A stretch of 32,000 nucleotides of DNA from Formosa sp. Hel1_33_131. Lineage in GTDB: Bacteria; Bacteroidota; Bacteroidia; Flavobacteriales; Flavobacteriaceae. The stretch is taken from assembly GCF_001735745.1 (NCBI RefSeq), contig NZ_CP017260.1, positions 2,520,001 through 2,552,000 of the forward strand. Reading direction: 5' to 3'. Each line of letters starts with the position of its first letter. Within the stretch, counting starts at the first letter, position 1. A program made the position numbers and the translations under genes. Positions 9,743 to 27,488 of this stretch are shown piece after piece. Below the pieces are notes generated by a model, which searched no databases, was not told the DNA's origin, and saw only the letters and a program-made list of their open reading frames with translations.

Positions 9743-12700
9743 ATGAACCAAATTATGAGAAACACCTTTATAAGATTAATTCTTTTTTTAATTACAACCA
9801 GCGCATTTGCTCAGGCAGATAAAGTAAAGGTGGTCAATAATGAAGACGGAATGAAATTAGTTGTCAATGGAGAAGACTTCATGATCAACGGAATGAATTG
9901 GGATTACTTCCCAATTGGTACAAATTACTCCTACAGTTTATGGAAGCAATCTGATGATGTCATTAAGGCAGCATTGGACGCAGAAATGGGCTTATTGAAA
10001 AACATGGGAGTCAATGTCATAAGGCAATATACAGGTGTACAGCCAAAATGGATACAATACATCTATGAGAACTATGGTATATATACTATGCTGAATCACT
10101 CCTTTGGACGTTACGGATTGACCGTAAACGGCGGATGGGTAGCAGTGACGGATTATAGAGATCCAGCAACCCAAGAGTTGTTGATGTCTGAAGCAACTAC
10201 ATTGGCTGAAGATTATAAAGACACGCCGGGTTTACTAATGTTCCTATTAGGAAACGAAAATAACTACGGTCTTTTTTGGGCAGGTGCTGAAACAGAAGAT
10301 TTTCCTGATGAAGAAGAAAAAAGAGATTTCGTTGGCGAAGAGCGTGGAAGACCGATGTACAAGCTGATGAACGATGCTACGATTAAAATGAAGAGTATTG
10401 ATTCCTCTCACCCCATAGCAATCTGTAATGGAGATGTCTTATTTATAGACATCATTGCTGAAGAGTGTAAAGACATCGATATTTTCGGAACCAATATGTA
10501 TCGTGGATCTTCTTTTACAGATGCATTCAAAACGGTTAAAGAAAAATTAGACATGCCTATTATGTTAACCGAGTTTGGTGCAGATGCATTTAACGCGATT
10601 GAAAATGCTGAAGACCAAAAAATGCAAGCCTATTATATGGTTGAAAACTGGAAAGATATTTACCAGAATGCTGCAGGTTTAGGGAAATCAGAGAATGCAA
10701 TAGGAGGTTTCACCTTTCAATTTAGCGATGGTTGGTGGAAATTTGGACAAACTAAAAATTTAGACATTCATGACAACAATGCCTCATGGGCAAATGGTGG
10801 TTATGCTTTGGATTTGGCTCCTGGTGAAAATAACATGAACGAAGAATGGTTTGGTATTTGTGCCAAAGGCCCTACAAATACTAGAGGACTTTATACCTTA
10901 TATCCACGTGCAGCATATTATGCATTAAAAACAGCACACCAATTAAATCCTTATGAAGAAGGTGTCACTCCAGAATTTGTAACAACTCATTTTGAGAACA
11001 TTCAATTAATGGATGCAGTTCTTCGAGCAAGAGGAGATAAAGCAGCTTTAGGAGGCAGTGAAAAAATTAAACTAAGCAATTTAAGAGCTGAGTTTTCAAC
11101 CTTTAATACAGGCGGTACACTTATTACAACTCCTGATAATGCAGATCCAAATACAAATGGATATCCAAATGAACTAGGTTTTGATCATATGCAATCTTAC
11201 TTTATTGGTGTAGAAGGGAATCCTACTTCTAATTTGCGTGCCAATGTGAATTTCAACATTCTTGGTCATGTTGCTGAGAATCCAATTGACGAAATATTTT
11301 ATGAAAATACAGGACGTTCATTTGAAGTTACTACAGACGATGGAAATGTAACTATTTCAGATCCAAACAGAGTTAAAATATACAATGCAGAATTTGATTG
11401 GAATGCTAAAGAATTTAATCTTAGAGGGTTTTACAGAACCGGGCATTACCACTGGGCTTATGAAGGCGATTTATTTAACTTGTACAGAGAAGCAAATTAC
11501 GGGCCTAATTTAGATTTGTATAACGGTGAAATTTCAGGTATTGAATTTGATGCCAAGGGAACACTAAAAGGTTTAAAAGCCGCTTTTGGTCCTCAACTTT
11601 GGTGGGGAGCAAATCCAGCAATATTATTGAAATATGGTAGAAATCTAGGTGGCTGGGATGTTGCTGCTGTTTACCACGAAGATATTGATGATGTAGGTAG
11701 GGCTGTTACTTCAATCGCCATACCACTTCCAAAAACACGTAGAGTCTCTTTGGCTGTCGAAAGACAATTTGGAGCTTTTAATTTTGAGATAGGTGGTTTA
11801 TGGGGAGGACAACCTCTAAACGGTCGTGAATTTCAAATAGCGGAAGGTACTACTGATAATTACATCATTTATACAGACAAAATCAACGAAAATGACAACT
11901 GGGGTGCAAAAGCCAAGTTATCCTATGAAAAGGGAGCTTTTAAATGGTATGCACAAGGCGCCAGCATGGGCTTAGTTGCTAATGGTGGATCGGATCAAAC
12001 ACAAACATTTACAGGTTGGAAATTGAAGGATTCTGGAAGTGGAAACCAAAACAACTTCCTTTCTGGTTTTTCATATACGTTTGGGGATTTTCAAATTGCC
12101 CCTAACTTTTTATGGCAAAAACCAATTGTGGGTGCCATGCCAAATGATTTAAATGGAGGCACTGGACGTCTGAGAAATATACAAGACGATCCATTTGCGG
12201 TAAGAGGAAACAGAGAAACCACTGCTGGAGAACTCTTATTTTCTTACGATCCAACACCAGGAACCTGGATGTACGAATGGGACAACGACCGAGCTGAAGA
12301 CGCAAAGTTCGCTTTCAATCTTGGCTTTGTATTTCGTCACCACCCAACAGCACAAGATGCAGCCGTTGGATTTTTAGCAAATCGTACTTCTTTTGCATTT
12401 CCGAATGCAGCACCTGCACAAGATTTATGGGAAGCACATTCACGCATCGTATCTAAAATGACTCCAGAAATTGGATTTATTGCCAACCTATATGCTGGTA
12501 ATGCACAGGCAAATGGTAGCGATCCTCGACTGATTCAACGTGTTGGAGGAGACATTCGATTGATTTATAATAAATTGAAATTGACCCATACATTTAAAAT
12601 TAACGATTGGGGACCTTTTGATTACCACCGAGATTTTAACTTGACGTACCCAGTACAATTAATGTTAGATCTATCGACCACCTTAGGAAAACCAGATTGG

Positions 12701-12892
12701 TTCATCCTTCCAAACACACAAGTAGGTGTCCGTGGAACATGGCGTTCATTAAATGAAAACTCGCCACGTTACTCACCTAATTTTGTGCCAGCTAACACAT
12801 TCCCACCAGTGCCTCCTATTAGTTCGGTAGGATTTCCTGACGGAAGTGAATGGGAAATTAGAACATACATACATATCAATATTGGAAAATAA
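9743..12892 (+). CDS. Secreted fusion protein: N-terminal clan GH-A (beta/alpha)8 glycosidase-like domain + about 620-aa C-terminal beta-barrel-like (putative outer-membrane) domain
   Basis: SPI signal peptide (LITTSAFA|QADK). GH-A motifs FMINGMNWDY, GVNVIRQY, LLGNENNYG (E172) and IMLTEFGAD (E277). The C-terminal part has many amphipathic G/Y/F/W-rich strands and no TM helices. No TonB box, plug or carboxypeptidase-regulatory motifs were recognised. Confidence 0.8.
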   Translation: MNQIMRNTFIRLILFLITTSAFAQADKVKVVNNEDGMKLVVNGEDFMINGMNWDYFPIGTNYSYSLWKQSDDVIKAALDAEMGLLKNMGVNVIRQYTGVQPKWIQYIYENYGIYTMLNHSFGRYGLTVNGGWVAVTDYRDPATQELLMSEATTLAEDYKDTPGLLMFLLGNENNYGLFWAGAETEDFPDEEEKRDFVGEERGRPMYKLMNDATIKMKSIDSSHPIAICNGDVLFIDIIAEECKDIDIFGTNMYRGSSFTDAFKTVKEKLDMPIMLTEFGADAFNAIENAEDQKMQAYYMVENWKDIYQNAAGLGKSENAIGGFTFQFSDGWWKFGQTKNLDIHDNNASWANGGYALDLAPGENNMNEEWFGICAKGPTNTRGLYTLYPRAAYYALKTAHQLNPYEEGVTPEFVTTHFENIQLMDAVLRARGDKAALGGSEKIKLSNLRAEFSTFNTGGTLITTPDNADPNTNGYPNELGFDHMQSYFIGVEGNPTSNLRANVNFNILGHVAENPIDEIFYENTGRSFEVTTDDGNVTISDPNRVKIYNAEFDWNAKEFNLRGFYRTGHYHWAYEGDLFNLYREANYGPNLDLYNGEISGIEFDAKGTLKGLKAAFGPQLWWGANPAILLKYGRNLGGWDVAAVYHEDIDDVGRAVTSIAIPLPKTRRVSLAVERQFGAFNFEIGGLWGGQPLNGREFQIAEGTTDNYIIYTDKINENDNWGAKAKLSYEKGAFKWYAQGASMGLVANGGSDQTQTFTGWKLKDSGSGNQNNFLSGFSYTFGDFQIAPNFLWQKPIVGAMPNDLNGGTGRLRNIQDDPFAVRGNRETTAGELLFSYDPTPGTWMYEWDNDRAEDAKFAFNLGFVFRHHPTAQDAAVGFLANRTSFAFPNAAPAQDLWEAHSRIVSKMTPEIGFIANLYAGNAQANGSDPRLIQRVGGDIRLIYNKLKLTHTFKINDWGPFDYHRDFNLTYPVQLMLDLSTTLGKPDWFILPNTQVGVRGTWRSLNENSPRYSPNFVPANTFPPVPPISSVGFPDGSEWEIRTYIHINIGK
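9821..10957 (+). other. Domain: clan GH-A TIM-barrel glycosidase-like module (GH2/GH5/GH158-type; family not resolvable by eye)
   Basis: Candidate acid/base Glu in GNEN (nt 10256-10258) and candidate nucleophile Glu in LTEFG (nt 10571-10573). They are 105 residues apart, as in retaining GH-A enzymes. Confidence 0.6.
11030..12889 (+). other. Domain: predicted large beta-barrel / all-beta region
   Basis: Alternating-polarity strands include LRANVNFNILG, FNLRGFYRTG, RVSLAVERQFGAFNFEIGGLWG, GAKAKLSYEKGAFKWYAQGASMG, FLSGFSYTFGDFQIAPNFLWQ, FAFNLGFVFRHH, VGGDIRLIYNKLKLTHTFKIN and the terminal EWEIRTYIHINIGK. Membrane-barrel status is inferred, not shown. Confidence 0.45.
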
Positions 12893-12904
12893 AAAACTGT
12901 AAAA

Positions 12905-14314
12905 ATGAAAAATATAAAATTTATGTATTCAAAAATTATGCTCCTCACGGGATTACTTTTTGTAATCACCATGAGTTGTGAGAGAGACATTTCTGATCAG
13001 GTAGAATTTGCACACTTATCTAAAACAGGTGAGATTTTCACAGATTCACCTATTGGACTTGGGAGTGATTTTTACTTTCCATACACAGGTTCAAAAGCAA
13101 CCGCTTGGTCAGTAGACGAAGGCGAAGGTTATGAAAGTTTTGCTTCCATGCGATTTGATGTGCCCAATGCAAATGATCCAGCAGGAAATTATGCAGGAGC
13201 CATATTTAGAGTTGATGGATCAGGACGTGACCTTACTGAATTTGATGCCTTAACCTTTTGGGCGAAAGCATCTCAAGGCGTTGTGATTGGTGAAGTAGGA
13301 TTTGGACAAGACTTTGGACTGAATAAATACCAAGTATCTGAAAACAATGTAAGTTTAAGTACCAACTGGCAAAAATTTGTGATTCCAATTCCAGATGCTT
13401 CAAAACTTTTTGATGAAAGAGGGATGTTTTGGTATTCGGCAGGAACCCAAAATACAGGTGGAAATGGTTATACGTTTTGGATTGATGAATTAAAGTTTGA
13501 AAAACTAGGAACCATCGGACAACCAAGACCCGCCATTTTAAATGGTAATGATGTTGTACAAGATGCCTTTTCAGGAATTGTTTTAGAATTAACAGGCTTA
13601 ACTCAAACCTTCAATTTGGGTTCTGGATTAAATAAAACAGTGAATGTCGCACCAAGTTATTTTGATTTTACATCTTCGGAACCAAGTTTGGCTTTCATAG
13701 ATGAATTTGGGAACATCTCTGTTAGTAGTGGTTCAGCTGTGATAACAGCGACTCTAGGAGGCGTAGAAGCAGAAGGCTCCATGACCATAAATGCAGTCGG
13801 TGCATTTGATGTAGCACCCACGCCAACAAGAGACCCGAGTGATGTGATTTCTATTTTTAGTGATAGTTATACAAACGTTCCAGTGGACTTTTTCAATGGT
13901 TACTGGGAACCTTGGCAAACAACACTGTCTTCTGATTTCGTAGTAGACGGTAACAACATGATCAACTACACTAATTTTAATTTTGTGGGAACTCAATTTG
14001 CCAACCCAACTGTGGATATTACAGATTATCCTAATTTACATGTAAATATCTACATTCCAGAAGAACCTGCCAATCTTGATTTTTTAATTACAGTGAGAGA
14101 TTTTGGGCCTGACCAAGCTGATGGTGGAGGTGATGATACATTCCAACAAATATTCTTTGATGGCGATGATTTTGAAGCAGGTACTTGGAGTACTTTAGAA
14201 GCTCAAATAACCTTGCCGACTCGAAATAATATGGGACTTATTATTTATGAAAACATTAATGGTTCTTCATTAAATGAACTGTATGTAGATAATATTTATT
14301 TTTATAAAAACTAG
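12905..14314 (+). CDS. Surface glycan-binding lipoprotein candidate: CBM-like domain + Ig-like (Big_2-type) domain + CBM-like domain
   Basis: Lipobox LFVITMS-C25 followed by the acidic ERDISD. Big_2-like segment SSEPSLAFIDEFGNISVSSGSAVITATLGGVEAEGSMTI. Beta-sandwich style ends FWIDELKFEKLG and LYVDNIYFYKN. Starts 12 nt after the barrel-fusion gene. Confidence 0.65.
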   Translation: MKNIKFMYSKIMLLTGLLFVITMSCERDISDQVEFAHLSKTGEIFTDSPIGLGSDFYFPYTGSKATAWSVDEGEGYESFASMRFDVPNANDPAGNYAGAIFRVDGSGRDLTEFDALTFWAKASQGVVIGEVGFGQDFGLNKYQVSENNVSLSTNWQKFVIPIPDASKLFDERGMFWYSAGTQNTGGNGYTFWIDELKFEKLGTIGQPRPAILNGNDVVQDAFSGIVLELTGLTQTFNLGSGLNKTVNVAPSYFDFTSSEPSLAFIDEFGNISVSSGSAVITATLGGVEAEGSMTINAVGAFDVAPTPTRDPSDVISIFSDSYTNVPVDFFNGYWEPWQTTLSSDFVVDGNNMINYTNFNFVGTQFANPTVDITDYPNLHVNIYIPEEPANLDFLITVRDFGPDQADGGGDDTFQQIFFDGDDFEAGTWSTLEAQITLPTRNNMGLIIYENINGSSLNELYVDNIYFYKN

Positions 14315-14341
14315 AGGATTATAAATTCAAAAAAACAAAAC

Positions 14342-15274
14342 ATGAATAAAATAAATAAATATAAGTTAAGGATTCAAACACTCGTGTTGATGTCTTTTCT
14401 TTTTGCATCATTTTTCACGATTTCCAGTTGTGATACAGACGAAACCCAAACGGTTGCCACGTTTACAAATTTAACGATGTCTGATGAGTTTGATGTTGAA
14501 GGTGCTCCTAATTCTGAAATTTGGAATTACGATACAGGAACAGGTATCGATGGTTGGGGTAATAATGAGTTGCAATATTATACAGACCGTTCAGAAAATG
14601 TAACCGTACAAAATGGACTGTTAGTAATTTCTGCGATTGAAGAAAATTATAACGGCTCCTCATTTACATCGGCAAAACTGGTTACCAAAGGAAAATTCTC
14701 TCAAGCCTATGGACGTTTTGAAGCACGTATTAAAGTTCCGGGAGGATCAGGTCTTTGGCCTGCATTTTGGCTCTTAGGAGAAAACGTCGATGTGGACGGA
14801 TGGCCTCAATGTGGTGAGATTGATATTATGGAGTACCGCAGACAAGAACCTACAAAAGTAAGCGGCTCTATACACGGACCAGGGTATTCTGGTTTAACAG
14901 ATCCACAGGGACAAGTGACCAAAAGTTACGACTTAGGAAATGACCGTTATGACGCAGGATTCCATGTGTTTGGAATTGAGTGGAGCCCTGATTACATCAA
15001 CTATTATATAGACGATGTATTGTACAATCAAATTACACCTTCTGATATTGAAGTCACACCAGCCGATGCTGTTTACATCCTAAACGATGGTGTTGCAGCG
15101 ACTGCTGATACCGAAGCAATTCCGGGGACTGATATTACTGGGGATTGGGTTTTTAACAAACCCTTCTATATCATTATTAATTTAGCTGTTGGAGGTAATT
15201 TCCCAGGAAATCCTGACAGTGGAGAGACGTTTCCACAAAACATGCTAGTAGATTACGTAAGAGTATATAAATAA
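14342..15274 (+). CDS. GH16 endo-beta-1,3-glucanase (laminarinase) lipoprotein
   Basis: GH16 catalytic motif GEIDIMEY (ExDxxE), plus WPAFWLLG and the MSDEFD start of the jelly-roll. Lipobox FTISS-C30-DTDE. Confidence 0.9.
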   Translation: MNKINKYKLRIQTLVLMSFLFASFFTISSCDTDETQTVATFTNLTMSDEFDVEGAPNSEIWNYDTGTGIDGWGNNELQYYTDRSENVTVQNGLLVISAIEENYNGSSFTSAKLVTKGKFSQAYGRFEARIKVPGGSGLWPAFWLLGENVDVDGWPQCGEIDIMEYRRQEPTKVSGSIHGPGYSGLTDPQGQVTKSYDLGNDRYDAGFHVFGIEWSPDYINYYIDDVLYNQITPSDIEVTPADAVYILNDGVAATADTEAIPGTDITGDWVFNKPFYIIINLAVGGNFPGNPDSGETFPQNMLVDYVRVYK

Positions 15275-17614: not shown

Positions 17615-17647
17615 AAGGCTAGGGAAAAATTATCTCTAGCCTTTTTA
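17615..17647 (+). terminator. Rho-independent terminator ending operon 1
   Basis: AAGGCTAG(GG)-loop-(CT)CTAGCCTT gives an 8-10 bp stem followed by TTTTTAT. It begins 10 nt after the stop codon at 17605. Confidence 0.6.
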
Positions 17648-20900: not shown

Positions 20901-21385
20901 ATGCAGGAATTGGTGTGCACAAATCACCAAAACTCTATGGAGCATTTCCAACCGATGCCTATTCGCATACACCGGCAGGAAAAGGTGCACAACAACCAGG
21001 AATGACGGGACAGGTAAAAGAAGATATTTTATCACGTTTTGGCGAACTAGGAGTGGTAGTTTCAGAAGGAACACTAGGATTCAATCCACGTTTACTACGA
21101 GGAAATGAGTTTTTGAAAGAAAGTAACATCTTTCATTACATCGCGATTCCTACTAAAAAAGACAGCATTTTGGTTTCAGAAGGTTCACTTTGTTTTACCT
21201 ACTGTCAAGTGCCTATTATATACACCATAGCAGAAGAAGACAGTTTAACGGTTGACTTCAGCAATGGAACCGCAAAAACGTTTAATAGCTTAAGCTTAGA
21301 TACAGAAACAAGCGAACACGTATTTAATCGTAATGGTGAAGTCGTTCAACTAAATGTACATATTAAAAAGAGTCGTTTAAAATAA
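17912..21385 (+). CDS. Cytoplasmic GH94-like (clan GH-Q) glycoside phosphorylase, most consistent with GH149-type beta-1,3-glucan phosphorylase
   Basis: 1157 aa with no signal peptide. RPEWNDANNAL (D655, nt 19874-19876) resembles the ADWNDCLN catalytic-Asp motif of GH94 phosphorylases. GNWRDIFQNWE resembles the RDxxQD phosphate/sugar-binding motif. Size and the GH16/GH17/GH30 context match what I recall for bacterial GH149. Confidence 0.6.
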   Translation: MTKKAIFLGKNKDVNQGKDIDGTLVNIDNEVYYKISNSDKMRPFFMSIVSDSNHWMFISSNGSLTAGRKNSEFALFPYYTDDKITEAAEITGSKSIFQVVKNDEVHLWEPFSDRFAGKYKTTRNLYKNEYGNKVLFEEINHDLELTFQYQWNSTNTFGFIKKSKLINTATSTVEVNVLDGIQNILPYGVGSDLQNASSNLVDAYKRSELEKSSGLGIYALSAIIVDKAEPSEALKANIVWSLGLDTPKYLLSSLQLDSFRKQYEIQDETDVKAEKGAYFVNSQIVLASQEDKEWLLVAEVNKNHSAIAKLVNKIKTNDGLWELIDQKIEKGTTRLIALNAASDGLQLSADKFRDTRHFSNTLFNIMRGGIFDNNYQIEKWDFKNYLAKANKKVARTTEENVEKLPEKFTLSVLQELAHQVDDTNFRRLCFEYMPLKFSRRHGDPSRPWNKFSINTKSEIDGSKILDYEGNWRDIFQNWEALAHSYPAFIESMIHKFLNATTFDGYNPYRVTKGGFDWETIEPDDPWSYIGYWGDHQVIYLLKFLEFIESHQPGKLATLFDKDLFVYANVPYKIKSYDALLENPKDTIEFDEALDHKIREQRVELGADGALLRDENRFIVKVNFIEKILATTLAKLSNFIPEGGIWMNTQRPEWNDANNALVGSGVSMVTLYYLRRFLKFFDTVIVQSDLETVEVSKELVTFFDAISTTFKDNQNLLSGRINDTDRKVILDALGNAGSNYRTQIYNAAFSGRKSELSVKDIKAFIEVSLQYLEHSIEVNKREDNLYHAYNLMTVNENNSVSISYLDEMLEGQVAVLSSKYLSTKQSLSVLDAMKNSKLFRPDQYSYLLYPNKELKGFIGRNTISAAAVSSSKLLGQLVSDKNVQIIEKDVNGDYHFNGNFKNANDLKAALIELSGTSYEALAHSETPKILQIFEEVFNHKAFTGRSGTFYGYEGLGSIYWHMVSKLQLAVLESCNSAIESEADAVDVGNLLDHYYEINAGIGVHKSPKLYGAFPTDAYSHTPAGKGAQQPGMTGQVKEDILSRFGELGVVVSEGTLGFNPRLLRGNEFLKESNIFHYIAIPTKKDSILVSEGSLCFTYCQVPIIYTIAEEDSLTVDFSNGTAKTFNSLSLDTETSEHVFNRNGEVVQLNVHIKKSRLK

Positions 21386-21400: not shown

Positions 21401-22693
21401 ATGAGAGCAACAAAGCATATATTAATTTTAATACTCCTTGTTTTTCTTGTAATATCTTGTAAAAATAAGCAATCAAATACGCAGAACCCGAACCAACAAA
21501 ATCAAAACGAAGTGACAGCTAAAGACATCTTAGGAAATTCAAAATATTTAGCGATCTCTTACGGAGGATATCGAAAAAAATCTCGAGATTTTCAACCCTC
21601 AATTGAAGAGTTAAAAGAAGATATGAAAATTCTTCATGCGATGAATATTAGAATATTGCGCACCTATAATGTGCGTTTGGCGCATACGTCTAATATTTTA
21701 AAAGCCATTCGGGAGTTGAAAAATGAAGATGCCAATTTCGAAATGTATATGATGGTTGGTGCTTGGATCGATTGTAAAAATGCTTGGACCGATCAACCGT
21801 TGAATCACCATGAAGAAAGCGAGAACAATGCCTCTGAGATTGATCGTGCAGTCGCTTTGGCACAAGAATTTCCAGATATTGTAAAAGTCATTGCCGTTGG
21901 AAATGAAGCCATGGTCAAATGGGCCGCCTCTTATTTTGTGCAACCCGCTGTGATTTTAAAATGGGTAAACCATTTACAAGCTTTAAAGAAAAAAGGAGAC
22001 CTATCCAAAGACTTATGGATCACCAGTTCCGATAATTTTGCTTCTTGGGGTGGGGGAGATCCTCAATACCATGTGGAAGATCTCACGAAATTAATCGAGG
22101 CTGTGGATTATCTATCTGTACATACCTATCCAATGCACGATACACATTACAATCCTATTTTTTGGGGCGTTTTCGGGGACGAAACCGAATTGTCAAGTTT
22201 GAAACGCATTGATATTGCCATGAACCGAGCCAAAACTTATGCCGTTTCACAAAGCGATAGTGTGGCAAGTTATATAAAGAGCTTGGGCATTAACAAACCA
22301 ATCCATATTGGTGAAACAGGTTGGGCAAGTTTTTCTAACGGTTATTACGGGGCTAAAGGCTCTAAAGCAACCGATGAGTACAAGGAGGCTATTTTTTACA
22401 ACCATATTCGTGAATGGACTAATGAAGCTAATATGTCATGCTTCTATTTTGAAGCCTTTGATGAACCATGGAAAGATGCGCATAACTCAGGAGGTTCTGA
22501 AAACCATTTTGGTTTATTTACGGTGGATGGTAAAGCAAAATACGTTCTCTGGGATTTGGTAGATAAAGGCGTTTTTGAAGGATTGACACGTGGCGGGAAT
22601 CCCATCACCAAAACCTATAATGGAAATAAAGAAGCACTATTCCTTGAGGTTGAATTGCCTCCGGTAAAAAAAGAAATCACAAAGAACCATTAA
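21401..22693 (+). CDS. GH17 beta-1,3-glucanase lipoprotein
   Basis: Lipobox LVIS-C20-KNKQSN with a Q/N-rich linker. VIAVGNEAMV (acid/base Glu) and IHIGETGWAS (nucleophile Glu) are present. FEAFDEPWK is typical of GH17. Confidence 0.85.
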   Translation: MRATKHILILILLVFLVISCKNKQSNTQNPNQQNQNEVTAKDILGNSKYLAISYGGYRKKSRDFQPSIEELKEDMKILHAMNIRILRTYNVRLAHTSNILKAIRELKNEDANFEMYMMVGAWIDCKNAWTDQPLNHHEESENNASEIDRAVALAQEFPDIVKVIAVGNEAMVKWAASYFVQPAVILKWVNHLQALKKKGDLSKDLWITSSDNFASWGGGDPQYHVEDLTKLIEAVDYLSVHTYPMHDTHYNPIFWGVFGDETELSSLKRIDIAMNRAKTYAVSQSDSVASYIKSLGINKPIHIGETGWASFSNGYYGAKGSKATDEYKEAIFYNHIREWTNEANMSCFYFEAFDEPWKDAHNSGGSENHFGLFTVDGKAKYVLWDLVDKGVFEGLTRGGNPITKTYNGNKEALFLEVELPPVKKEITKNH

Positions 22694-22694: not shown

Positions 22695-24182
22695 ATGAAA
22701 CGTTTAAAAATACATCATTTTTTAATTTTATTCGCAATGCTCACAGCATGTACATCTAAAGAACCTTTGCAAGTAACCGTTTATGAAACGTCTGCGAATG
22801 GTAACAAGTTAACCGAAGTATCAGAATTTAGTACTTCTGAAAACCCTTCGAAAATTCAACTGAGTCCGGAACAAATATTCCAAACCATCACTGGTTTTGG
22901 GGGCTCATTTACGGAATCTTCTGCGTACTTACTAAATCGTTTGAGTAAAAAAAATAGAACTAAAATTATCGACGCTTACTTTAGTGAAAAAGGTGCCAAC
23001 TATTCATTGACCCGTACACATATTAGTTCTTGTGATTTTTCATTAAATAACTATACCTATGCGCCTATAGCGGATGATTTTGAGCTAAAACATTTCAGCA
23101 TCATAGAAGATATGGACGATTTAATCCCTATGATAAAAGACGCAATGGCCGTCTCTGAAGATGGATTTAAAATCATAGCTTCTCCATGGACCGCACCGCC
23201 TTGGATGAAAGATAATAAAGAATATGTTGGTGGTAAATTACTACCAGAATACTACGATACCTTTGCCTTATTTTTTTCTAAATACATAGATTATTATAAA
23301 GCTGAAGGCATTGATATTTGGGGTTTAACCCCCGTCAATGAGCCTCATGGAAATGGCAATAACTGGGAGAGTATGCATTTCTCTCCAGAAGAGGAAACCG
23401 ATTTTGTTCAAAACCATTTAGGACCAAAACTGGAAGCGGACGGAAAAGGAGCAATCAATATTTTAGGCTATGATCAAAACAGAGCTGGATTAAAAGAATG
23501 GGTCGATGTGATGTTTGAAAATGAAGCAGCTTCCAAGTATTATGCAGGAACCGCCATTCATTGGTATGAAAGTACTTATGATTTTTTCCCTAAAGCATTA
23601 CAATATGCTCATGACAAAGCACCTAACAAATACTTAATAGAAACCGAAGGCTGTGTAGATTCTGAAATTCCAAAATGGCAAGATGACAAATGGTATTGGT
23701 CTAAAGAGGCAACGGATTGGGGATTTGATTGGCGAGAGCAAGAAAAAAAATATTTACATCCAAAATACGCCCCTGTCAACAGATATGCCAGAGATATTAT
23801 TGGTTGCTTAAATAACTGGGTTGACGGTTGGGTCGATTGGAATATGGTATTGGACAGACAGGGTGGTCCAAACTGGTTTAAAAACTGGTGTGTTGCTCCT
23901 GTGATTGTAGATTCCGATAACGATGAAGTCTATTTTACGCCTTTGTATTATACGATGGCACATTTTAGTAAATACATACGACCCGGCGCCAAAGTGATTG
24001 GTCTGGATCATTCGGATACCGACCTACAAGTCACCGCTGCACAAAACCCTGATGGAACCATTGCAGTTGTGGTATTCAATGAAGGAACAACATTAAAAAC
24101 CTTTGAACTTTCTTTAGGAGAATCTTCAACAATAATAGCCATACAACCACAAGCCATACAAACGATTGTATTACCAAACTAA
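22695..24182 (+). CDS. GH30 family glycosidase lipoprotein (probable exo-beta-1,6-glucanase debranching laminarin)
   Basis: Lipobox MLTA-C19-TSKE. GFGGSFTESSAY, WGLTPVNEP (acid/base) and YLIETEGC (nucleophile) are GH30 motifs. Substrate is inferred from context. Confidence 0.85.
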   Translation: MKRLKIHHFLILFAMLTACTSKEPLQVTVYETSANGNKLTEVSEFSTSENPSKIQLSPEQIFQTITGFGGSFTESSAYLLNRLSKKNRTKIIDAYFSEKGANYSLTRTHISSCDFSLNNYTYAPIADDFELKHFSIIEDMDDLIPMIKDAMAVSEDGFKIIASPWTAPPWMKDNKEYVGGKLLPEYYDTFALFFSKYIDYYKAEGIDIWGLTPVNEPHGNGNNWESMHFSPEEETDFVQNHLGPKLEADGKGAINILGYDQNRAGLKEWVDVMFENEAASKYYAGTAIHWYESTYDFFPKALQYAHDKAPNKYLIETEGCVDSEIPKWQDDKWYWSKEATDWGFDWREQEKKYLHPKYAPVNRYARDIIGCLNNWVDGWVDWNMVLDRQGGPNWFKNWCVAPVIVDSDNDEVYFTPLYYTMAHFSKYIRPGAKVIGLDHSDTDLQVTAAQNPDGTIAVVVFNEGTTLKTFELSLGESSTIIAIQPQAIQTIVLPN

Positions 24183-24215: not shown

Positions 24216-25580
24216 ATGTCTAACACTCTTAACAAAGTCCCCTTAGGTCAAAAGATTGCCTTTGGCTTAGGAATGCTTGCCAACCAAATGTTTCCAGCAG
24301 CACTTGGAATTTTTATGGTCGTTCTCGTACAAAATTTAGGATTTCCAGGTTGGATGTGGGGAATCATATACTTTTTTCCGAGAATATTTGATTCTTTCAC
24401 AGATCCAATAATGGGGTTTATCTCAGATAACACCAAATCTAAATGGGGGAGACGTAGGCAGTATGTGTTTATTGGTGCGATTGTGATGGGAATTTCCTTT
24501 GCAATTATGTGGCAATTATATATAGATAGTGGCGTAGATTATAATTTTGTGTATTTTATGTTTTGGTCCTTTATCTTTTATTTAGGGCTCACTATTTTTA
24601 GTGTTCCTTACGTAGCGATGGGCTATGAGATGAGTGATGATTTTCATGAACGTACAAGCATCATGGCGGTTGCACAATGGATCGGCCAGTGGGCATGGGT
24701 TATAGCTCCATGGTTTTGGGTGATTATGTATATTAACGGCGATGATGGATGGTTTGAAACTGCAGAAGAAGCGACACGGACTTTAGCTATTTGGGTTGGT
24801 GTTATTTTAATGTTTGTGGCGATGGTTCCTGCACTATTTATCAAGAGTAAATCGACTTTAGACGAAGATTATGCCGATTTATCACTTAGTAATATTAAAG
24901 GAAGTTTTAAAGAAATCAAGTTAGGATTTCAAGAAGCGTTGAAAATTAAGCCGTTCCGTAAATTATGTATTTCAACTTTTCTAATTTTTAATGCCTTCAA
25001 TACGGTTGCTACATTTACCTTTTTTGTCATTGTATATCAGTTATTTAATGGAGATGCAGAAGCTGCAAATGCGGGATACTGGCCTTCGTTATTTGGATGT
25101 TTAGGGGCGTTGTCCACAACCTTTATCGTCATTCCGATTGTCACTAGGATGTCTCGTAAGCTAGGAAAGAAAAATGCATTTTTATGGTCTCAAGGGATTT
25201 CTATAATAGGGTACATACTCCTTTGGTTTTTATTGATTCCAGGAAAACCCTATATGTTTATTTTCGCCCTTCCTTTCTTCTCCTTTGGAATAGGAAGTTT
25301 ATTTACATTGATGATGTCCATGACTTCAGATGTAATTGATTTAGATGAATTAAATACAGGAAAACGAAGAGAAGGTATTTTTGGCGCTATTTATTGGTGG
25401 ATGGTCAAATTTGGTTTTGCAATTGCTGGAGCTTTGAGTGGAGTCATTCTATCCGTTATTGGTTTTCAAGAAGGCATTGCCTCTACGGAACAAGAAGGGG
25501 CTATCATTGGTTTGCGTGTATTCTTTTCGGGTTTCCCAATATTAGGAACTCTAATCGCTATGTGGATTATGCGTGACTAT
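24216..25580 (+). other. Domain: GPH/MFS transporter module (12 TM)
   Basis: The TM segments are arranged 6+6 around a charged central loop (KSKSTLDEDYADLSLSNIKGSFKEIK). Confidence 0.8.
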
Positions 25581-26564
25581 GATCTTACAGAAGAAAAAGC
25601 GGTAAAAATCAGTGCTGAACTAGCAAAACGAAAAGAGAAACCAACCTCTTTTTATCAAACAAATAAGTTAGCATCCTTACTCGCTTCAGGAATACAAATT
25701 GATTCGACTTCGGATACTGATTTCACTTCAAAATCGGATGCGGATATTAAAGCCCTGTTTTCAGAAACTTTAAATAAGGGTCTGCACGGCATGTGTTTTA
25801 GCCCGTATTTAGAAGGACAAAACATTGGAAATCAGTTATCGGAATCTCAAATCAGTCAACGTATGGATGTCATTGCACCTTACACTCAATGGGTGCGTTC
25901 ATTCTCCTGTACTGAAGGGAACGAGCATACACCTAAAATTGCCCACGAAAAACATTTAAAAACAATGGTGGGTGCATGGATCGGAAGTGATAAAGCTCAG
26001 AACGAAAAAGAGCTCAACACCTTAATCAAACTTGGAAAATCGGGGTTTGTAGATATCGCAGTTGTAGGGAATGAAACCTTGATGCGTGAAGAATTAACAG
26101 AAGAAGAATTGATTGCGTATATAAACCGTGTCAAACGCTCCCTACCAGGAATTCCTGTGGGTTATGTGGATGCCTATTACCAATTTGTAGAACGCCCTAA
26201 GCTGATTGATGCTTGTGACGTTATTTTAGCTAATTGCTATCCGTTTTGGGAAGGCTGTAGTATTGAGCAATCAGCAACGTATTTAAAGCAAATGTATGCC
26301 GTCACACAACAAGTAGCCAATGGGAAGCCTGTTATTATTACAGAAACAGGCTGGCCAAACCAAGGAGATCACACAAAAGATGCGGAACCTTCAGAAAACA
26401 ATGCGATGAAATATTTTATAGATACTGCCAATTGGGCGGGACAAAATGAAGTACCACTATTCTATTTCTCCTCATTTGATGAGTCATGGAAAGTACATCA
26501 CGAAGGAGATGTTGGAGCACGCTGGGGACTTTGGGATAAGAATGAGAATTTAAAATTTCAATAA
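24216..26564 (+). CDS. Fusion protein: 12-TM GPH/MFS-type sugar:cation symporter + C-terminal cytoplasmic GH17 domain
   Basis: A single uninterrupted 782-aa ORF. GPH motif RIFDSFTDPIMGFISD. I counted 12 hydrophobic segments in aa 1-455. Linker is aa 456-515. The GH17 part carries VVGNETLM (E620, nt 26073-26075) and IITETGWPN (E710, nt 26343-26345). Confidence 0.85.
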   Translation: MSNTLNKVPLGQKIAFGLGMLANQMFPAALGIFMVVLVQNLGFPGWMWGIIYFFPRIFDSFTDPIMGFISDNTKSKWGRRRQYVFIGAIVMGISFAIMWQLYIDSGVDYNFVYFMFWSFIFYLGLTIFSVPYVAMGYEMSDDFHERTSIMAVAQWIGQWAWVIAPWFWVIMYINGDDGWFETAEEATRTLAIWVGVILMFVAMVPALFIKSKSTLDEDYADLSLSNIKGSFKEIKLGFQEALKIKPFRKLCISTFLIFNAFNTVATFTFFVIVYQLFNGDAEAANAGYWPSLFGCLGALSTTFIVIPIVTRMSRKLGKKNAFLWSQGISIIGYILLWFLLIPGKPYMFIFALPFFSFGIGSLFTLMMSMTSDVIDLDELNTGKRREGIFGAIYWWMVKFGFAIAGALSGVILSVIGFQEGIASTEQEGAIIGLRVFFSGFPILGTLIAMWIMRDYDLTEEKAVKISAELAKRKEKPTSFYQTNKLASLLASGIQIDSTSDTDFTSKSDADIKALFSETLNKGLHGMCFSPYLEGQNIGNQLSESQISQRMDVIAPYTQWVRSFSCTEGNEHTPKIAHEKHLKTMVGAWIGSDKAQNEKELNTLIKLGKSGFVDIAVVGNETLMREELTEEELIAYINRVKRSLPGIPVGYVDAYYQFVERPKLIDACDVILANCYPFWEGCSIEQSATYLKQMYAVTQQVANGKPVIITETGWPNQGDHTKDAEPSENNAMKYFIDTANWAGQNEVPLFYFSSFDESWKVHHEGDVGARWGLWDKNENLKFQ
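25761..26561 (+). other. Domain: GH17 module fused to transporter C-terminus
   Basis: Gapless alignment to the downstream 302-aa GH17 at a 927-nt offset, with 156/258 identical residues (about 60%) by hand count. Confidence 0.85.
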
Positions 26565-26579
26565 TAAAACTACAGTACT

Positions 26580-27488
26580 ATGTCATTTAAAGAAGGTCAA
26601 CAATTTTCGCTAAAAAAAATCGATCAACCCTACGAATCTGGAGTTAATTTCACGAAACTATCTACAGAAGGTTTAGAAGAATTATGGAAACATACCTTAA
26701 ACAACGGAATGCACGGTTTGTGTTTTAGTATGTATGAAGACGGCCAAGGGCCTGGTAATAAAATTACAGAACATCAGGTTGATAGACGTATGCAAGTGAT
26801 CAAGCCTTACACCAAATGGGTGCGCTCATTTTCGTGTATTGAAGGCAATGAATTCATCCCTCGCATGGCGCACAAACACGGCATTAACACCTTGGTTGGT
26901 GCTTGGTTGGGTGATGACTTAGAAAAAAACGAAGAAGAACTAGAAGCCTTAATTGCATTGGCAAAAGAAGGCTGTGTAGATATAGCTGCCGTTGGCAATG
27001 AAGTGATGTATAGAGAAGAACTCACAGAAGCACAGTTGTTAGAATACATCCTTAGAGTAAAAGAAGCATTGCCCGGAATTCCAGTAGGCTATGTGGACGC
27101 TTATTATGAGTTTACACAGCGACCAAAAATCGCAAAAGCTTGTGATGTCATTTTAGCCAATTGCTATCCCTATTGGGAAGGCTGTAGCCAAGAAGACTCC
27201 TTAAATCACATTCAAAAAATGTTTGGCGAAGCAGTTGATGCGGCACAAGGAAAAAAAGTAATAATTACTGAATCTGGCTGGCCGAGTGAAGGCGGCAGTT
27301 TAAGAGGGGCGTTTTCATCTAAAGAAAATGCAATGCGCTATTTTATAAATGTCCAAAAATGGTCTAAAGAAGCCAATATAGATCTATTTTATTTCTCCTC
27401 CTTTGATGAATCATGGAAAGTGGGCACCGAAGGCGATGTTGGTGCCTATTGGGGTCTGTGGGATAAAAATGAGAAGTTGAAGTTTTAG
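26580..27488 (+). CDS. GH17 family protein, soluble, no signal peptide (cytoplasmic paralog of the fused domain)
   Basis: AAVGNEVMY and IITESGWPS catalytic motifs, plus FYFSSFDESWK. The N-terminus MSFKEGQQFSLKKIDQ is hydrophilic. Confidence 0.85.
   Translation: MSFKEGQQFSLKKIDQPYESGVNFTKLSTEGLEELWKHTLNNGMHGLCFSMYEDGQGPGNKITEHQVDRRMQVIKPYTKWVRSFSCIEGNEFIPRMAHKHGINTLVGAWLGDDLEKNEEELEALIALAKEGCVDIAAVGNEVMYREELTEAQLLEYILRVKEALPGIPVGYVDAYYEFTQRPKIAKACDVILANCYPYWEGCSQEDSLNHIQKMFGEAVDAAQGKKVIITESGWPSEGGSLRGAFSSKENAMRYFINVQKWSKEANIDLFYFSSFDESWKVGTEGDVGAYWGLWDKNEKLKF

What the first reader, a model, noticed from the sequence alone, without database searches (positions are those of the whole stretch)
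9743..27488. Ten-gene laminarin-type utilisation locus with no SusC/SusD pair and no regulator
All ten co-directional genes point to beta-1,3/1,6-glucan use: GH16, three GH17 copies, GH30, a GH94-like phosphorylase, a GPH/MFS importer and PKD/CBM-like binding proteins. Laminarin loci with GH16/GH17/GH30 and PKD proteins are well known in marine Flavobacteriia. By definition they are organised around a SusC-like TonB-dependent transporter and a SusD-like lipoprotein. Neither is recognisable here. The first two positions of operon 1 hold a 1049-aa and a 469-aa protein. These are SusC-like and SusD-like in size and order but unrelated in sequence: GH-A + beta-rich region, and an all-beta CBM/Ig lipoprotein rather than a helical SusD. 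The flanks (MIP channel on the left, comM on the right) are housekeeping genes, so a SusC/D pair is not hiding next door. No HTCS, SusR, LacI, GntR or ECF/anti-sigma gene lies in the locus. This may be an alternative outer-membrane uptake module for a PUL-like system. I cannot tell from the sequence whether it has been described.
Basis: partly seen in the sequence, partly recalled or inferred. Interest (0 to 1): 0.8.

Follow-up and report, generated by a model that had tools for sequence, protein, structure and literature searches.

The report
Known Formosa laminarin locus, unrecognised barrel protein
This is the already published, laminarin-induced "PUL 2" of the marine flavobacterium Formosa sp. 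Hel1_33_131, and its own SusC/D transporters and regulator lie elsewhere in the genome; its first gene, however, looks like a laminarin-cutting enzyme fused to an undescribed outer-membrane barrel, which may be a second way to take laminarin into the cell.

Summary
Window 9743-27488 holds nine co-directional ORFs, not ten, because the MFS importer and one GH17 are a single fused gene. Together they encode a complete beta-1,3/1,6-glucan pathway. There is no SusC, SusD or regulator in the locus or its flanks.

The locus is not new. The GH17 gene at 21401-22693 is 430/430 identical to PDB 6FCG (FbGH17A). The nine genes match FORMB_24670-24750, "PUL 2" of Formosa sp. Hel1_33_131 (Unfried 2018). 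That locus is laminarin-induced by proteomics. The same genome has two laminarin-induced SusC/D loci and a LuxR-family (BguR-type) regulator elsewhere.

What remains open is the first gene pair. The 1049-aa protein is a GH158/GH2-like clan GH-A domain with intact catalytic motifs, fused to a ~600-aa all-beta domain that has no Pfam, NCBIfam or PDB relative. I read that domain as a large outer-membrane barrel. The supports are the strand pattern, weak fold hits to 22-26-strand barrels, stand-alone homologues with signal peptides and C-terminal ...YxYxF, and published membrane-fraction enrichment. The barrel family occurs only in beta-1,3-glucan loci. The 469-aa protein is a CBM-Ig-CBM lipoprotein. 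The pair is conserved in about 590 genome loci, mostly without an adjacent SusC/D. A channel function is inferred, not shown.

The parts
9229..9742 (.). 514-bp AT-rich intergenic region upstream of the first gene. It is the presumed promoter/operator of operon 1. No regulator gene is here, whereas most related loci have a BguR-type gene at this place.
   Evidence: no ORF of note; a ~935-aa Reg_prop/Y_Y_Y/LuxR gene lies upstream in 60 of 80 related loci but not here. No motif is shared with the second intergenic region.
9743..12892 (+). g1, 1049 aa (= FORMB_24670, annotated 'GH2 family'/hypothetical). It has a Sec signal peptide (aa 1-24, ...AFA|QA), a clan GH-A (beta/alpha)8 domain, and a C-terminal all-beta domain predicted to be an outer-membrane barrel.
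9815..11032 (+). g1 N-terminal catalytic domain (aa ~25-430). It is a GH158/GH2-like clan GH-A TIM barrel. The putative acid/base is N171-E172 (LGNENN) and the putative nucleophile is E277 (TEFG).
   Evidence: Pfam Glyco_hydro_2_C at 8.5e-7. The family profile against PDB gives GH158 9ORO at 3.9e-4, BuGH158 6PAL at 4.9e-4 and GH2 1YQ2 at 4.2e-4, with both catalytic motifs aligned. These residues are invariant in 28-30 homologues and kept in 19 of 22 distant fused relatives. Foldseek hits are GH2/GH-A barrels.
11060..12889 (+). g1 C-terminal domain (aa ~440-1049), about 23-28 long beta-strands and no helices. It is predicted to be a large (~22-26-strand) outer-membrane beta-barrel of an uncharacterised family.
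   Evidence: No Pfam, NCBIfam or PDB sequence match. DSSP of the AF2 model shows hairpins with 2-6-residue turns alternating with long loops (low pLDDT). Foldseek hits OprC, BtuB, LptD and SlpA barrels at E 1e-4 to 1e-3 with low TM. Stand-alone homologues have signal peptides and a C-terminal YxYxF. The identical protein is enriched in the membrane fraction.
12905..14314 (+). g2, 469 aa (= FORMB_24680). A lipoprotein with invariant Cys25 followed by E-R-D, and three all-beta domains: CBM-like sandwich, Big_2 Ig-like, CBM-like sandwich. It is a probable surface glycan-binding protein.
   Evidence: lipobox ...TMSC|ERD. (C25, E26 and R27 invariant). AF2 pLDDT 81.6. Foldseek hits CBM22, CBM30, CBM11 and Bacteroides SGBP-B 7KWB/7K44. 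No SusD Pfam hit. Detected only on laminarin in the published proteomes.
14342..15274 (+). g3, GH16 endo-beta-1,3-glucanase (= FORMB_24690). A lipoprotein (C|DTDE), probably surface-exposed.
   Evidence: Pfam Glyco_hydro_16 at 9.5e-24. N-terminus. Laminarin-only expression.
15299..17605 (+). g4, 768-aa PKD-domain/CBM-like lipoprotein (= FORMB_24700; C|DDDE).
   Evidence: Pfam PKD_4 at 3.3e-8 and weak CBM_4_9-like hits. N-terminus. Induced 71- to 124-fold on laminarin.
17615..17643 (+). Terminator-like hairpin (11-bp stem, then a T-run) that closes operon 1. It is followed by a 270-bp AT-rich spacer with a TAnnTTTG box at 17791.
17912..21385 (+). g5, GH149 beta-1,3-glucan phosphorylase (= FORMB_24710). 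It has no signal peptide, so it is cytoplasmic.
   Evidence: NCBIfam NF058639 at 1805 bits. PDB 6HQ6 at 1680 bits. N-terminus.
21401..22693 (+). g6, GH17 endo-beta-1,3-glucanase FbGH17A (= FORMB_24720). A lipoprotein (C|KNKQ), probably facing the periplasm.
   Evidence: 430/430 identical to PDB 6FCG. Activity is described in Unfried 2018.
22695..24182 (+). g7, GH30 beta-1,6-glucosidase FbGH30 (= FORMB_24730), the debranching enzyme. A lipoprotein (C|TSKE).
   Evidence: Pfam Glyco_hydro_30 at 5.4e-78 plus GH30C..
24216..26564 (+). g8, a single 782-aa ORF (= FORMB_24740). It joins an MFS/GPH sugar:cation symporter (aa ~13-475) to a GH17 exo-beta-1,3-glucosidase domain, FbGH17B (aa ~500-782).
   Evidence: Pfam MFS_2 at 6.9e-66 and GH17 at 2.8e-9 in one ORF. 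TIGR00792. The published fusion is described.
26580..27488 (+). g9, 302-aa GH17 protein (= FORMB_24750). It has no signal peptide, so it is cytoplasmic.
   Evidence: Pfam GH17 at 5.6e-11..

Best explanation
The window is the chromosome of Formosa sp. Hel1_33_131 ('Formosa B') or a near-identical strain. Region 9743-27488 is its published laminarin-induced 'PUL 2' (FORMB_24670-24750), arranged as two operons.

Shown by published work on the identical proteins. The locus is switched on by laminarin. GH30 removes the beta-1,6 branches. GH17A cuts the beta-1,3 backbone. The MFS-GH17B fusion imports oligosaccharides and trims them.

Inferred from signal sequences and family membership. Laminarin is captured at the surface by the lipoproteins g2 (CBM-Ig-CBM) and g4 (PKD/CBM) and nicked by the surface GH16 (g3). 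Oligosaccharides then cross the outer membrane. GH30 and GH17A act in the periplasm. GH149 phosphorolyses imported oligomers to glucose-1-phosphate in the cytoplasm, next to the leaderless GH17 g9.

Why there is no SusC/D or regulator. The genome supplies them in trans. Two laminarin-induced SusC/D pairs sit in PUL 1 and PUL 3, and a LuxR-family (BguR-type) regulator sits beside PUL 1.

My added inference. g1 is not a plain 'GH2'. It is a GH158-like retaining beta-glucanase domain covalently joined to a ~600-aa outer-membrane beta-barrel. That barrel belongs to a family unrelated in sequence to TonB-dependent transporters. The most likely role is a TonB-independent, beta-1,3-glucan-dedicated outer-membrane channel with its own tethered glucanase. 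The enzyme domain is most simply placed on the periplasmic side, because it precedes the barrel. g1 would work with the adjacent lipoprotein g2, in parallel with the SusC/D systems. This would be an outer-membrane counterpart of the inner-membrane MFS-GH17 fusion in the same locus.

My confidence by step: locus identity and pathway about 0.95; g1 C-terminus is an outer-membrane barrel about 0.75; it conducts laminarin oligosaccharides about 0.45.
For: Identity. g6 is 430/430 identical to PDB 6FCG, FbGH17A. The nine-gene order and annotations match FORMB_24670-24750 one to one. g5 matches the GH149 structure 6HQ6.

Induction (Unfried 2018, Table S3). FORMB_24670 (g1) is 1.19 %riBAQ in the membrane proteome on laminarin against 0.006 on glucose, a 196-fold rise. 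That exceeds either SusC-like receptor (0.46 and 0.45). Its fraction pattern (membrane > extracellular > soluble) matches the TonB-dependent receptors and not the lipoproteins g2 and g4. g2 and g3 were detected on laminarin only.

SusC/D and regulator in trans. FORMB_10080/10090 and FORMB_13580/13590; FORMB_10110, LuxR family; BguR function in F. agariphila.

g1 enzyme domain. Profile hits to GH158 and GH2, with aligned and invariant GNE and TEFG motifs.

g1 barrel. The AF2 secondary structure is all-beta hairpins with short turns alternating with long loops. Foldseek hits large outer-membrane barrels. There are 507 family representatives. They include 560-660-aa stand-alone forms with signal peptides and a C-terminal ...YxYxF, alignable over the whole domain.

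Context. g1-g2 are adjacent wherever the sequence allows, in 80 loci drawn from about 590 hits. The arrangement BguR then g1-g2-GH16 with no SusC/D within 10 kb occurs in 47 loci, and SusC/D is adjacent in 14. Barrel homologues outside Bacteroidota also sit in beta-glucan loci, with GH16, GH17, a GH149-like gene, an oligosaccharide ABC importer, LacI and GH1. One is next to a CBM-repeat lipoprotein.

Against: In the fused branch the last residue is L, M, I or the tail I-G-K, not the aromatic residue typical of outer-membrane proteins. SusC proteins from related genomes do end in F.

BOMP gave FORMB_24670 only its lowest category and PSORTb returned 'unknown'.

No transport, topology or enzymatic data exist for g1 or g2. 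Formosa B shows TonB/SusCD-type 'selfish' uptake and has two induced SusC/D pairs, so no extra channel is needed to explain growth. In 14 of 80 loci g1-g2 sit alongside SusC/D. That fits an accessory role at least as well as a transporter role.
Confidence: 0.7

Rival explanations
1. g1 is only a multidomain glycosidase. The C-terminal 600 aa would be soluble accessory beta-domains (Ig/CBM-like, as in GH2 and GH158 enzymes) that bind glycan or the cell surface. All outer-membrane transport of laminarin fragments would go through the SusC/D pairs of PUL 1 and PUL 3. The locus would simply be an enzyme-and-importer extension of those PULs.
For: GH2 and GH158 enzymes normally carry beta-sandwich domains after the TIM barrel. 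The g1 model is of low confidence. The fused branch lacks a C-terminal aromatic residue. SusC/D pairs are induced in the same cells. g1-g2 co-occur with SusC/D in 14 loci. Published annotations treat g1 as a GH2 or GH158 enzyme.
Against: No Ig, CBM or other domain model matches the 600 aa, even at E<=10. The strands are long (9-14 residues) and form consecutive hairpins with 2-residue turns, not 5-8-residue sandwich strands. Homologues of this domain exist as stand-alone secreted proteins ending in YxYxF. The fraction profile resembles TonB-dependent receptors. Three distant relatives lost the catalytic motifs but kept the domain, so the domain has a role beyond assisting catalysis.
Confidence: 0.2
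2. The barrel is a membrane anchor and not a channel. g1 would be displayed like an autotransporter or a barrel-anchored enzyme, so that the GH158-like laminarinase is held at the cell surface beside GH16 and the binding proteins. Uptake would still be by SusC/D.
For: The layout of N-terminal enzyme plus C-terminal barrel mimics type Va autotransporters (established knowledge). g1 is also found in the extracellular fraction at 0.67 %riBAQ. BuGH158 is a cell-surface enzyme in gut Bacteroides.
Against: A ~600-aa barrel is far larger than the 12-strand anchor of autotransporters. Bacteroidota normally anchor surface enzymes as lipoproteins, as g3, g4, g6 and g7 do here. Stand-alone barrels with no passenger sit in beta-glucan import loci beside ABC importers. 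A folded 400-aa TIM barrel would have to cross the outer membrane.
Confidence: 0.12
3. The strong form of the reader's idea: g1-g2 fully replace SusC/D. They would be the sole, self-sufficient outer-membrane uptake route for this locus and for the many genomes where BguR is followed directly by g1-g2.
For: In 47 of 80 related loci the regulator is followed directly by g1-g2-GH16 with no SusC/D within 10 kb. g1 is more abundant than either SusC-like receptor on laminarin. The barrel family tracks beta-1,3-glucan loci across phyla.
Against: In this genome two SusC/D pairs are co-induced by laminarin. Fourteen loci have both modules side by side. No transport data exist.
Confidence: 0.15

Closest known systems
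'PUL 2' (FORMB_24670-24750) of Formosa sp. Hel1_33_131, Unfried et al. 2018 (PMC6246565)
   Same: This is the same locus. It has nine genes in the same order. GH17A is 100% identical to PDB 6FCG. The MFS-GH17B fusion, GH30, GH149, GH16 and PKD protein are all the same.
   Different: Nothing differs in sequence terms. The paper annotated the first two genes as 'GH2 family'/hypothetical and 'glycoside hydrolase'/hypothetical. It did not assign them a membrane-barrel or binding-protein role.
SusC/SusD (TonB-dependent transporter plus lid lipoprotein) of Bacteroidota PULs
   Same: The gene order matches: a ~1000-aa predicted outer-membrane barrel protein followed by a ~470-aa surface lipoprotein. 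The pair leads a glycan locus and sits directly behind the regulator in most related genomes. It is highly induced by the substrate.
   Different: g1 has no Plug, no carboxypeptidase-regulatory-like N-terminal extension and no TonB box. It shows no profile similarity to SusC. g2 is all-beta and not the helical TPR-like SusD fold. g1 carries a glycosidase domain where SusC has its plug region. Any transport would be independent of TonB.
GH158 endo-beta-1,3-glucanases (BuGH158, PDB 6PAL; GH158(Pro), PDB 9ORO)
   Same: Both are clan GH-A TIM barrels with aligned N-E acid/base and E nucleophile motifs. Both are encoded in beta-1,3-glucan loci next to a GH16_3. A 2026 preprint lists GH158 among the enzymes of the syntenic F. 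agariphila laminarin PUL.
   Different: Similarity is only detectable at profile level (E about 4e-4). GH158 has a C-terminal 8-stranded Ig-like domain and is a ~400-aa lipoprotein. g1 has a 600-aa barrel-like domain instead. The activity of g1 is untested.
Sugar-specific porins of Proteobacteria (LamB maltoporin, ScrY, ChiP chitoporin)
   Same: The proposed logic is the same: a TonB-independent, substrate-dedicated outer-membrane channel, co-regulated with the catabolic and import genes for one oligosaccharide class. The stand-alone barrel homologues sit beside ABC importers and LacI, as these porins do.
   Different: There is no sequence relationship. The barrel is much larger (about 560 aa mature, against 16-18 strands and about 420 aa). 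It is fused to an enzyme in Bacteroidota. No conductance data exist.
MFS-GH17 transporter-enzyme fusion (FbGH17B) in the same locus
   Same: It follows the same design principle: a membrane transporter covalently joined to a beta-1,3-glucanase, which couples passage to cleavage.
   Different: It is in the inner membrane, is alpha-helical, and has been characterised biochemically. g1 would be the outer-membrane analogue and is only predicted.
Exopolysaccharide secretion pairs of outer-membrane porin plus periplasmic hydrolase (PgaA/PgaB, AlgE/AlgL, BcsC/BcsZ)
   Same: A beta-barrel is associated with a (beta/alpha)8-type glycan-processing domain. The PgaB C-terminal domain appears among the Foldseek hits.
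   Different: Those systems export polymer and are encoded with synthases. This locus has no glycosyltransferase. It is catabolic and is induced by external laminarin.

Membership tests
SusC-like TonB-dependent transporter (tested on g1) | Plug domain (PF07715) and TonB-dependent receptor barrel (PF00593/TIGR04056) | tested here: not met
   There is no hit at E<=0.01 for the whole protein or at E<=10 for either half. SusC from L003 and L017 score 5e-20 (Plug) and 2e-18 (barrel) with the same tool.
SusC-like TonB-dependent transporter (tested on g1) | N-terminal carboxypeptidase-regulatory-like extension and TonB box | tested here: not met
   There is no CarbopepD_reg hit. Residues 25-60 align to the first strands of GH158/GH2 catalytic domains instead.
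SusC-like TonB-dependent transporter (tested on g1) | Barrel homologous to the 22-strand TBDT barrel | tested here: not met
   hhalign of the barrel-family profile A4 against a profile of nine laminarin-locus SusC gives probability 0.1%, E 0.55. Foldseek similarity to OprC and BtuB is weak (TM 0.11-0.14) and comes from a low-confidence model.
SusD/RagB (tested on g2) | SusD_RagB / SusD-like_2 / SusD-like_3 domains and an all-helical TPR-like fold | tested here: not met
   There is no Pfam hit even at E<=10. The AF2 model (pLDDT 81.6) is all-beta with three domains. Its best fold matches are CBM22, CBM30, CBM11 and SGBP-B. SusD controls score 4e-30.
Canonical PUL (PULDB sense) | An adjacent susC/susD-like gene pair | tested here: not met
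   None is present in 9743-27488 or anywhere in the 32-kb window. By the PULDB definition this is a 'CAZyme cluster', although Unfried 2018 named it PUL 2.
BguR-regulated laminarin locus | A ~940-aa Reg_prop/Y_Y_Y/LuxR one-component regulator adjacent to the locus | tested here: not met
   It is absent from the window. It is present upstream in 60 of 80 related loci. A LuxR-family gene, FORMB_10110, lies by PUL 1 of the same genome. That it controls this locus is an inference.
GH158 (tested on the g1 N-terminal domain) | Clan GH-A (beta/alpha)8 fold with N-E acid/base after strand 4 and E nucleophile after strand 7 | tested here: met
   The LGNENN (E172) and TEFG (E277) motifs align to the catalytic motifs of 9ORO and 6PAL. 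They are invariant in close homologues. The model shows TIM-barrel secondary structure.
GH158 (tested on the g1 N-terminal domain) | Significant match to the family (CAZy/dbCAN model) and a C-terminal Ig-like domain packed on the barrel | tested here: inconclusive
   Only profile-level E of about 4e-4 to the two GH158 structures, equal to the GH2 hit. No dbCAN library is available here. No Ig-like domain is recognisable. A preprint lists GH158 in the syntenic F. agariphila PUL without saying which gene.
Outer-membrane beta-barrel protein (tested on the g1 C-terminal domain) | Sec signal peptide, no hydrophobic helices, and all-beta amphipathic hairpins with short turns alternating with long loops | tested here: met
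   Signal peptide. The only hydrophobic 19-mer is the signal peptide. The DSSP strand pattern is, from a low-confidence model.
Outer-membrane beta-barrel protein (tested on the g1 C-terminal domain) | C-terminal beta-signal ending in an aromatic residue | tested here: inconclusive
   The stand-alone homologues end in ...YxYxF/Y/W, 12 of 12 inspected. g1 and the fused branch end in hydrophobic-x-hydrophobic-x-hydrophobic with L, M, I or the tail I-G-K.
Outer-membrane beta-barrel protein (tested on the g1 C-terminal domain) | Experimentally membrane-embedded closed barrel | not testable with these tools
   Only indirect evidence is available. FORMB_24670 is 6.5-fold enriched in the membrane fraction over the soluble fraction, like the TonB-dependent receptors. 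There is no structure.
GH149 beta-1,3-glucan phosphorylase (tested on g5) | Score above the curated family cut-off | tested here: met
   NF058639 at 1805.6 bits against a cut-off of 1150, full length. 1680 bits to 6HQ6.
GH17 FbGH17A (tested on g6) | Sequence identity to the crystallised enzyme | tested here: met
   430/430 identical to 6FCG chain A.

The most novel reading that the evidence does not exclude
The first two genes encode an unrecognised kind of outer-membrane glycan-uptake module. It would consist of a large TonB-independent beta-barrel, from a family confined to beta-1,3-glucan loci of Bacteroidota and marine Gammaproteobacteria, plus a CBM-bearing lipoprotein partner. In Bacteroidota the barrel is covalently fused to a GH158-like laminarinase, so that passage through the membrane and cleavage are coupled. 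This would be an outer-membrane twin of the MFS-GH17 fusion and a second route for 'selfish' laminarin uptake beside SusC/D.
Probability: 0.4. Interest if true: 0.8.

Novelty: already known. Interest (0 to 1): 0.45.

Why it matters
Laminarin is one of the largest fluxes of fixed carbon in the ocean. Formosa sp. Hel1_33_131 is a model for the flavobacteria that consume it during diatom blooms. The locus itself adds nothing new. It is published, shown to be laminarin-induced, and three of its enzymes are characterised.

The open point is the protein at its head. It is the most abundant locus-encoded membrane protein on laminarin and is conserved at 64-97% identity in about 590 genome loci. It is still annotated as a 'GH2-type glycosidase'. 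If its C-terminal half is a glucan channel, current models would be incomplete, because they route all outer-membrane glycan import in Bacteroidota through TonB-dependent SusC/D. SusC/D-based proxies for laminarin use in metaproteomes would then miss a major component. The many 'SusC/D-less' laminarin clusters would also have an explanation. The hypothesis can be tested directly, because F. agariphila carries the same gene pair and can be manipulated genetically.

Tried and rejected
1. g1 as SusC or g2 as SusD: rejected by Pfam and NCBIfam with positive controls, and by hhalign.

2. Hidden SusC/D among large unassigned neighbours in related loci (1090/525, 1302/488, 1399/481 and 910/473 aa pairs). 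These turned out to be a tricorn-type protease with a Kelch protein, a sulfatase with DUF2961, an unknown with a GntR-aminotransferase, and an unknown with DUF1501.

3. Sequence relatives of the barrel domain in PDB, Pfam or NCBIfam: none found.

5. A Rosetta-stone argument from L085, where a GH-A ORF and the barrel are separate. I discounted it because the two ORFs overlap by 17 nt on a 2x-coverage long-read contig, so this is probably a frameshifted fusion.

6. A shared operator motif between the two intergenic regions: only A/T-rich 9-10-mers were found.

7. Sigma-70 promoter scan: fewer hits than in shuffled sequence, so uninformative for Bacteroidota.

8. An exopolysaccharide-export reading (porin plus hydrolase): rejected on context (no synthase, catabolic genes, induction by external laminarin).

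9. g2 and g4 sharing a domain: no significant pairwise similarity.

10. Literature searches for any description of a GH-barrel fusion or a TonB-independent laminarin channel: nothing found in the searchable library. The library is incomplete, so this is not proof of absence.

Full report
WHAT IS THERE. The window has nine consecutive + strand ORFs between 9743 and 27488. Gaps between them are 1-33 bp, except for one 306-bp gap after the fourth gene.

Domain searches give the following:
- g1: 1049 aa, with only a weak Glyco_hydro_2_C hit at residues 38-288.
- g2: 469 aa, with no family hit.
- g3: GH16.
- g4: a PKD-domain protein.
- g5: GH149 beta-1,3-glucan phosphorylase (NF058639, 1805 bits).
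- g6: GH17.
- g7: GH30.
- g8: a single 782-aa ORF joining an MFS/GPH symporter to a GH17 domain.
- g9: GH17.

The 'GH94-like' enzyme is GH149. The flanks are an MIP channel and a comM-type ATPase. No TonB-dependent receptor, SusD or regulator model matches anything in the locus, even at E<=10 for g1 and g2. Real SusC, SusD and regulator genes from related loci score strongly with the same tool.

WHERE IT COMES FROM. g6 is identical over all 430 residues to PDB 6FCG, the GH17A of Formosa sp. Hel1_33_131. The nine genes correspond one to one to FORMB_24670-24750, the 'PUL 2' of that strain in Unfried et al. 2018 (PMC6246565).

That paper showed by subcellular proteomics that all nine proteins are induced by laminarin. 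It characterised FbGH30 (debranching), FbGH17A (endo; crystal structure) and FbGH17B, the GH17 domain fused to the MFS transporter. It also detected the proteins in a North Sea bloom metaproteome.

The same table lists two laminarin-induced SusC/D pairs elsewhere in the genome: FORMB_10080/10090 in PUL 1 and FORMB_13580/13590 in PUL 3. A LuxR-family regulator, FORMB_10110, lies beside PUL 1. Regulators of this type, about 940 aa with Reg_prop/Y_Y_Y/LuxR domains, were recently shown to be indispensable for laminarin use in F. agariphila and were named BguR. GH149 clusters without susCD had already been noted in Bacteroidetes as 'CAZyme clusters'.

So the locus, its induction and its lack of SusC/D are already known.

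THE FIRST TWO GENES: g2. It has a lipoprotein signal with an invariant Cys25-Glu-Arg. A reasonably confident AF2 model (pLDDT 81.6) shows three all-beta domains: a CBM-like sandwich, a Big_2 Ig-like domain and a second CBM-like sandwich. The fold matches are CBM22, CBM30, CBM11 and the SGBP-B proteins of gut Bacteroides glucan loci. It is therefore a surface-glycan-binding-type lipoprotein and not a SusD.

THE FIRST TWO GENES: g1, enzyme domain. g1 has a Sec signal peptide followed by a (beta/alpha)8 domain. A profile of 28 orthologues hits the two solved GH158 endo-beta-1,3-glucanases (9ORO at 3.9e-4, 6PAL at 4.9e-4) and a GH2 (1YQ2 at 4.2e-4). The LGNENN and TEFG motifs align to their acid/base and nucleophile. 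N171, E172 and E277 are invariant. They are kept in 19 of 22 distant relatives; three relatives have lost them.

THE FIRST TWO GENES: g1, C-terminal domain. Residues ~440-1049 match no Pfam, NCBIfam or PDB sequence. The AF2 model of g1 is poor (pLDDT 52.5). Its secondary structure is nevertheless clear: no helices and about 23-28 strands of 9-14 residues, arranged as consecutive hairpins in which 2-6-residue turns alternate with 8-34-residue loops.

Foldseek splits its hits between GH-A TIM barrels, for the N-terminus, and large outer-membrane barrels, for the C-terminus: OprC, BtuB, LptD and SlpA at E 1e-4 to 1e-3. The TM-scores for the barrel hits are low.

A full HMMER search with the C-terminal domain found 507 cluster representatives. 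Among them are 560-660-aa stand-alone proteins from marine Pseudomonadales and Oceanospirillaceae MAGs. They start with signal peptides, end in the classical outer-membrane signature ...YxYxF, and align with g1 across the whole domain, including the last strand.

In the published proteomes FORMB_24670 is 1.19 %riBAQ of the membrane fraction on laminarin. That is 196-fold over glucose and 2.6-fold above either SusC-like receptor. Its distribution is membrane > extracellular > soluble, like the receptors and unlike the lipoproteins.

Two points weigh against the barrel reading. In the fused branch the C-terminal residue is L, M, I or the tail I-G-K rather than aromatic. BOMP and PSORTb did not call the protein an outer-membrane protein. 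I put the outer-membrane barrel reading at about 0.75. It is not a TonB-dependent transporter, because it has no plug and no TonB box, and hhalign against SusC gives probability 0.1%.

COMPARATIVE CONTEXT. A scan of species-representative genomes found about 590 loci encoding g1 relatives at 64-87% identity. They occur in Flavobacteriaceae, Saprospiraceae, Lewinellaceae, Chitinophagales and Cytophagales-type MAGs.

In the 80 loci fetched, g1 is followed by g2 wherever sequence is available, and almost always then by GH16. PKD, GH149 or GH3, GH17, GH30 and MFS-GH17 usually follow. Classifying the neighbours gave three groups:
- 47 loci have a BguR-type regulator directly followed by g1-g2, with no SusC/D within 10 kb.
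- 14 loci have SusC-SusD, usually with an SGBP and a PKD protein, next to g1-g2.
- 19 loci have neither. Many of these are short contigs. The window and its 87%-identical relative L015 are true cases.

So the pair often occupies the position that SusC/D takes in a PUL, but it also coexists with SusC/D.

Outside Bacteroidota, barrel homologues lie in LacI-regulated beta-glucan loci. One is followed by a lipoprotein with three CBM-like repeats, an oligosaccharide-type ABC importer, LacI and GH1 (L082/L083). Another is next to an ABC importer and LacI (L086). Others sit among GH16, a giant CBM protein, two GH17 genes and a GH149-sized protein (L087, L085). The family therefore tracks beta-1,3-glucan use across two phyla.

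HOW IT MOST LIKELY WORKS. Shown, for the identical proteins in the literature: laminarin induction; GH30 debranching; GH17A endo-cleavage; the MFS-GH17B fusion.

Inferred from signal sequences and family membership:
- g2, g3 and g4 are lipoproteins with acidic residues after the lipid-bearing Cys. They probably act at the surface, binding laminarin and nicking it with GH16.
- g6 and g7 are lipoproteins without such residues and probably act in the periplasm.
- g5 (GH149) and g9 lack signal peptides and probably act in the cytoplasm.

Hypothesis: g1 is an outer-membrane barrel that conducts laminarin oligosaccharides without TonB. Its GH158-like domain is tethered to the barrel, most simply on the periplasmic side because it precedes the barrel. 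There it could cut the incoming chain and prevent back-diffusion. g2 would act as the glycan-capturing partner. This route would run in parallel with the SusC/D systems of PUL 1 and PUL 3.

The regulator is supplied in trans, probably by FORMB_10110. I rate the channel function at about 0.45.

Three rivals remain, each with its own test in the report sections. g1 could be a soluble multidomain glycosidase. The barrel could be a mere anchor that displays the enzyme. Or g1-g2 could fully replace SusC/D.

NOVELTY AND SCORE. The finding as stated, a laminarin locus without SusC/D or a regulator, is a published and experimentally studied locus whose missing parts are encoded elsewhere in the genome. 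That is 'already known'.

I found no paper in the searchable library that describes this. It gains real, though indirect, support here. I therefore score overall interest at 0.45. I separately give the novel reading a probability of 0.4, with interest 0.8 if true.

Noticed in passing
L015 (CALSPC010000007.1), whole locus: The record is titled 'uncultured Rhodobacteraceae bacterium'. It nevertheless carries the same flavobacterial flanking genes and laminarin locus as the window at 82-87% amino-acid identity. The contig is probably mis-binned or the MAG mislabelled.
   Followed up: partly
L081 (ENA ERZ10646643 contig_13033), 10001-21266: This is the same locus as the window, but the genes for the 469-aa, PKD and GH30 proteins are each split into two ORFs. 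These look like long-read frameshift errors and not biology.
   Followed up: no
L018 ~9000-10000 and L020 ~9000-10000: An extra 332-333-aa GH-A ORF, 25% identical to the g1 N-terminal domain, lies immediately upstream of g1. It may be a stand-alone GH158-like paralogue.
   Followed up: no
window 28001-29000: GC content rises to 0.458 inside the comM-like gene (27647-29185), against about 0.37 in the rest of the window.
   Followed up: no
window 17791-17798: TATTTTTG matches the Bacteroidota -7 promoter box TAnnTTTG. It lies about 120 nt upstream of the GH149 start codon and downstream of the hairpin at 17615-17643. No such box is found upstream of the first gene.
   Followed up: partly
L085 9853-10599 and L087 10386-11126: A 246-248-aa ORF with no Pfam match follows the barrel gene in two non-Bacteroidota beta-glucan loci. 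It may be a conserved small partner protein.
   Followed up: partly
proteins P0268, P0287, P0350 (distant fused relatives of g1): These three have lost the GNE and TEFG catalytic motifs but keep the C-terminal barrel domain. This suggests pseudo-enzyme variants in which the barrel function is what is retained.
   Followed up: partly
L082/L083 2875-9782: In the Pseudomonadales MAG the stand-alone barrel locus lies directly downstream of a type II secretion gene run (gspC, D, E, F, G, H, I). That run appears to stop after gspI.
   Followed up: no
window 2678-8501 (- strand): An unrelated minus-strand block lies left of the locus. It holds GTP cyclohydrolase I, a photolyase-related DPRP protein, a flavin reductase, an ABC1 atypical kinase and a TetR regulator. 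Nothing links the TetR to the laminarin genes.
   Followed up: no
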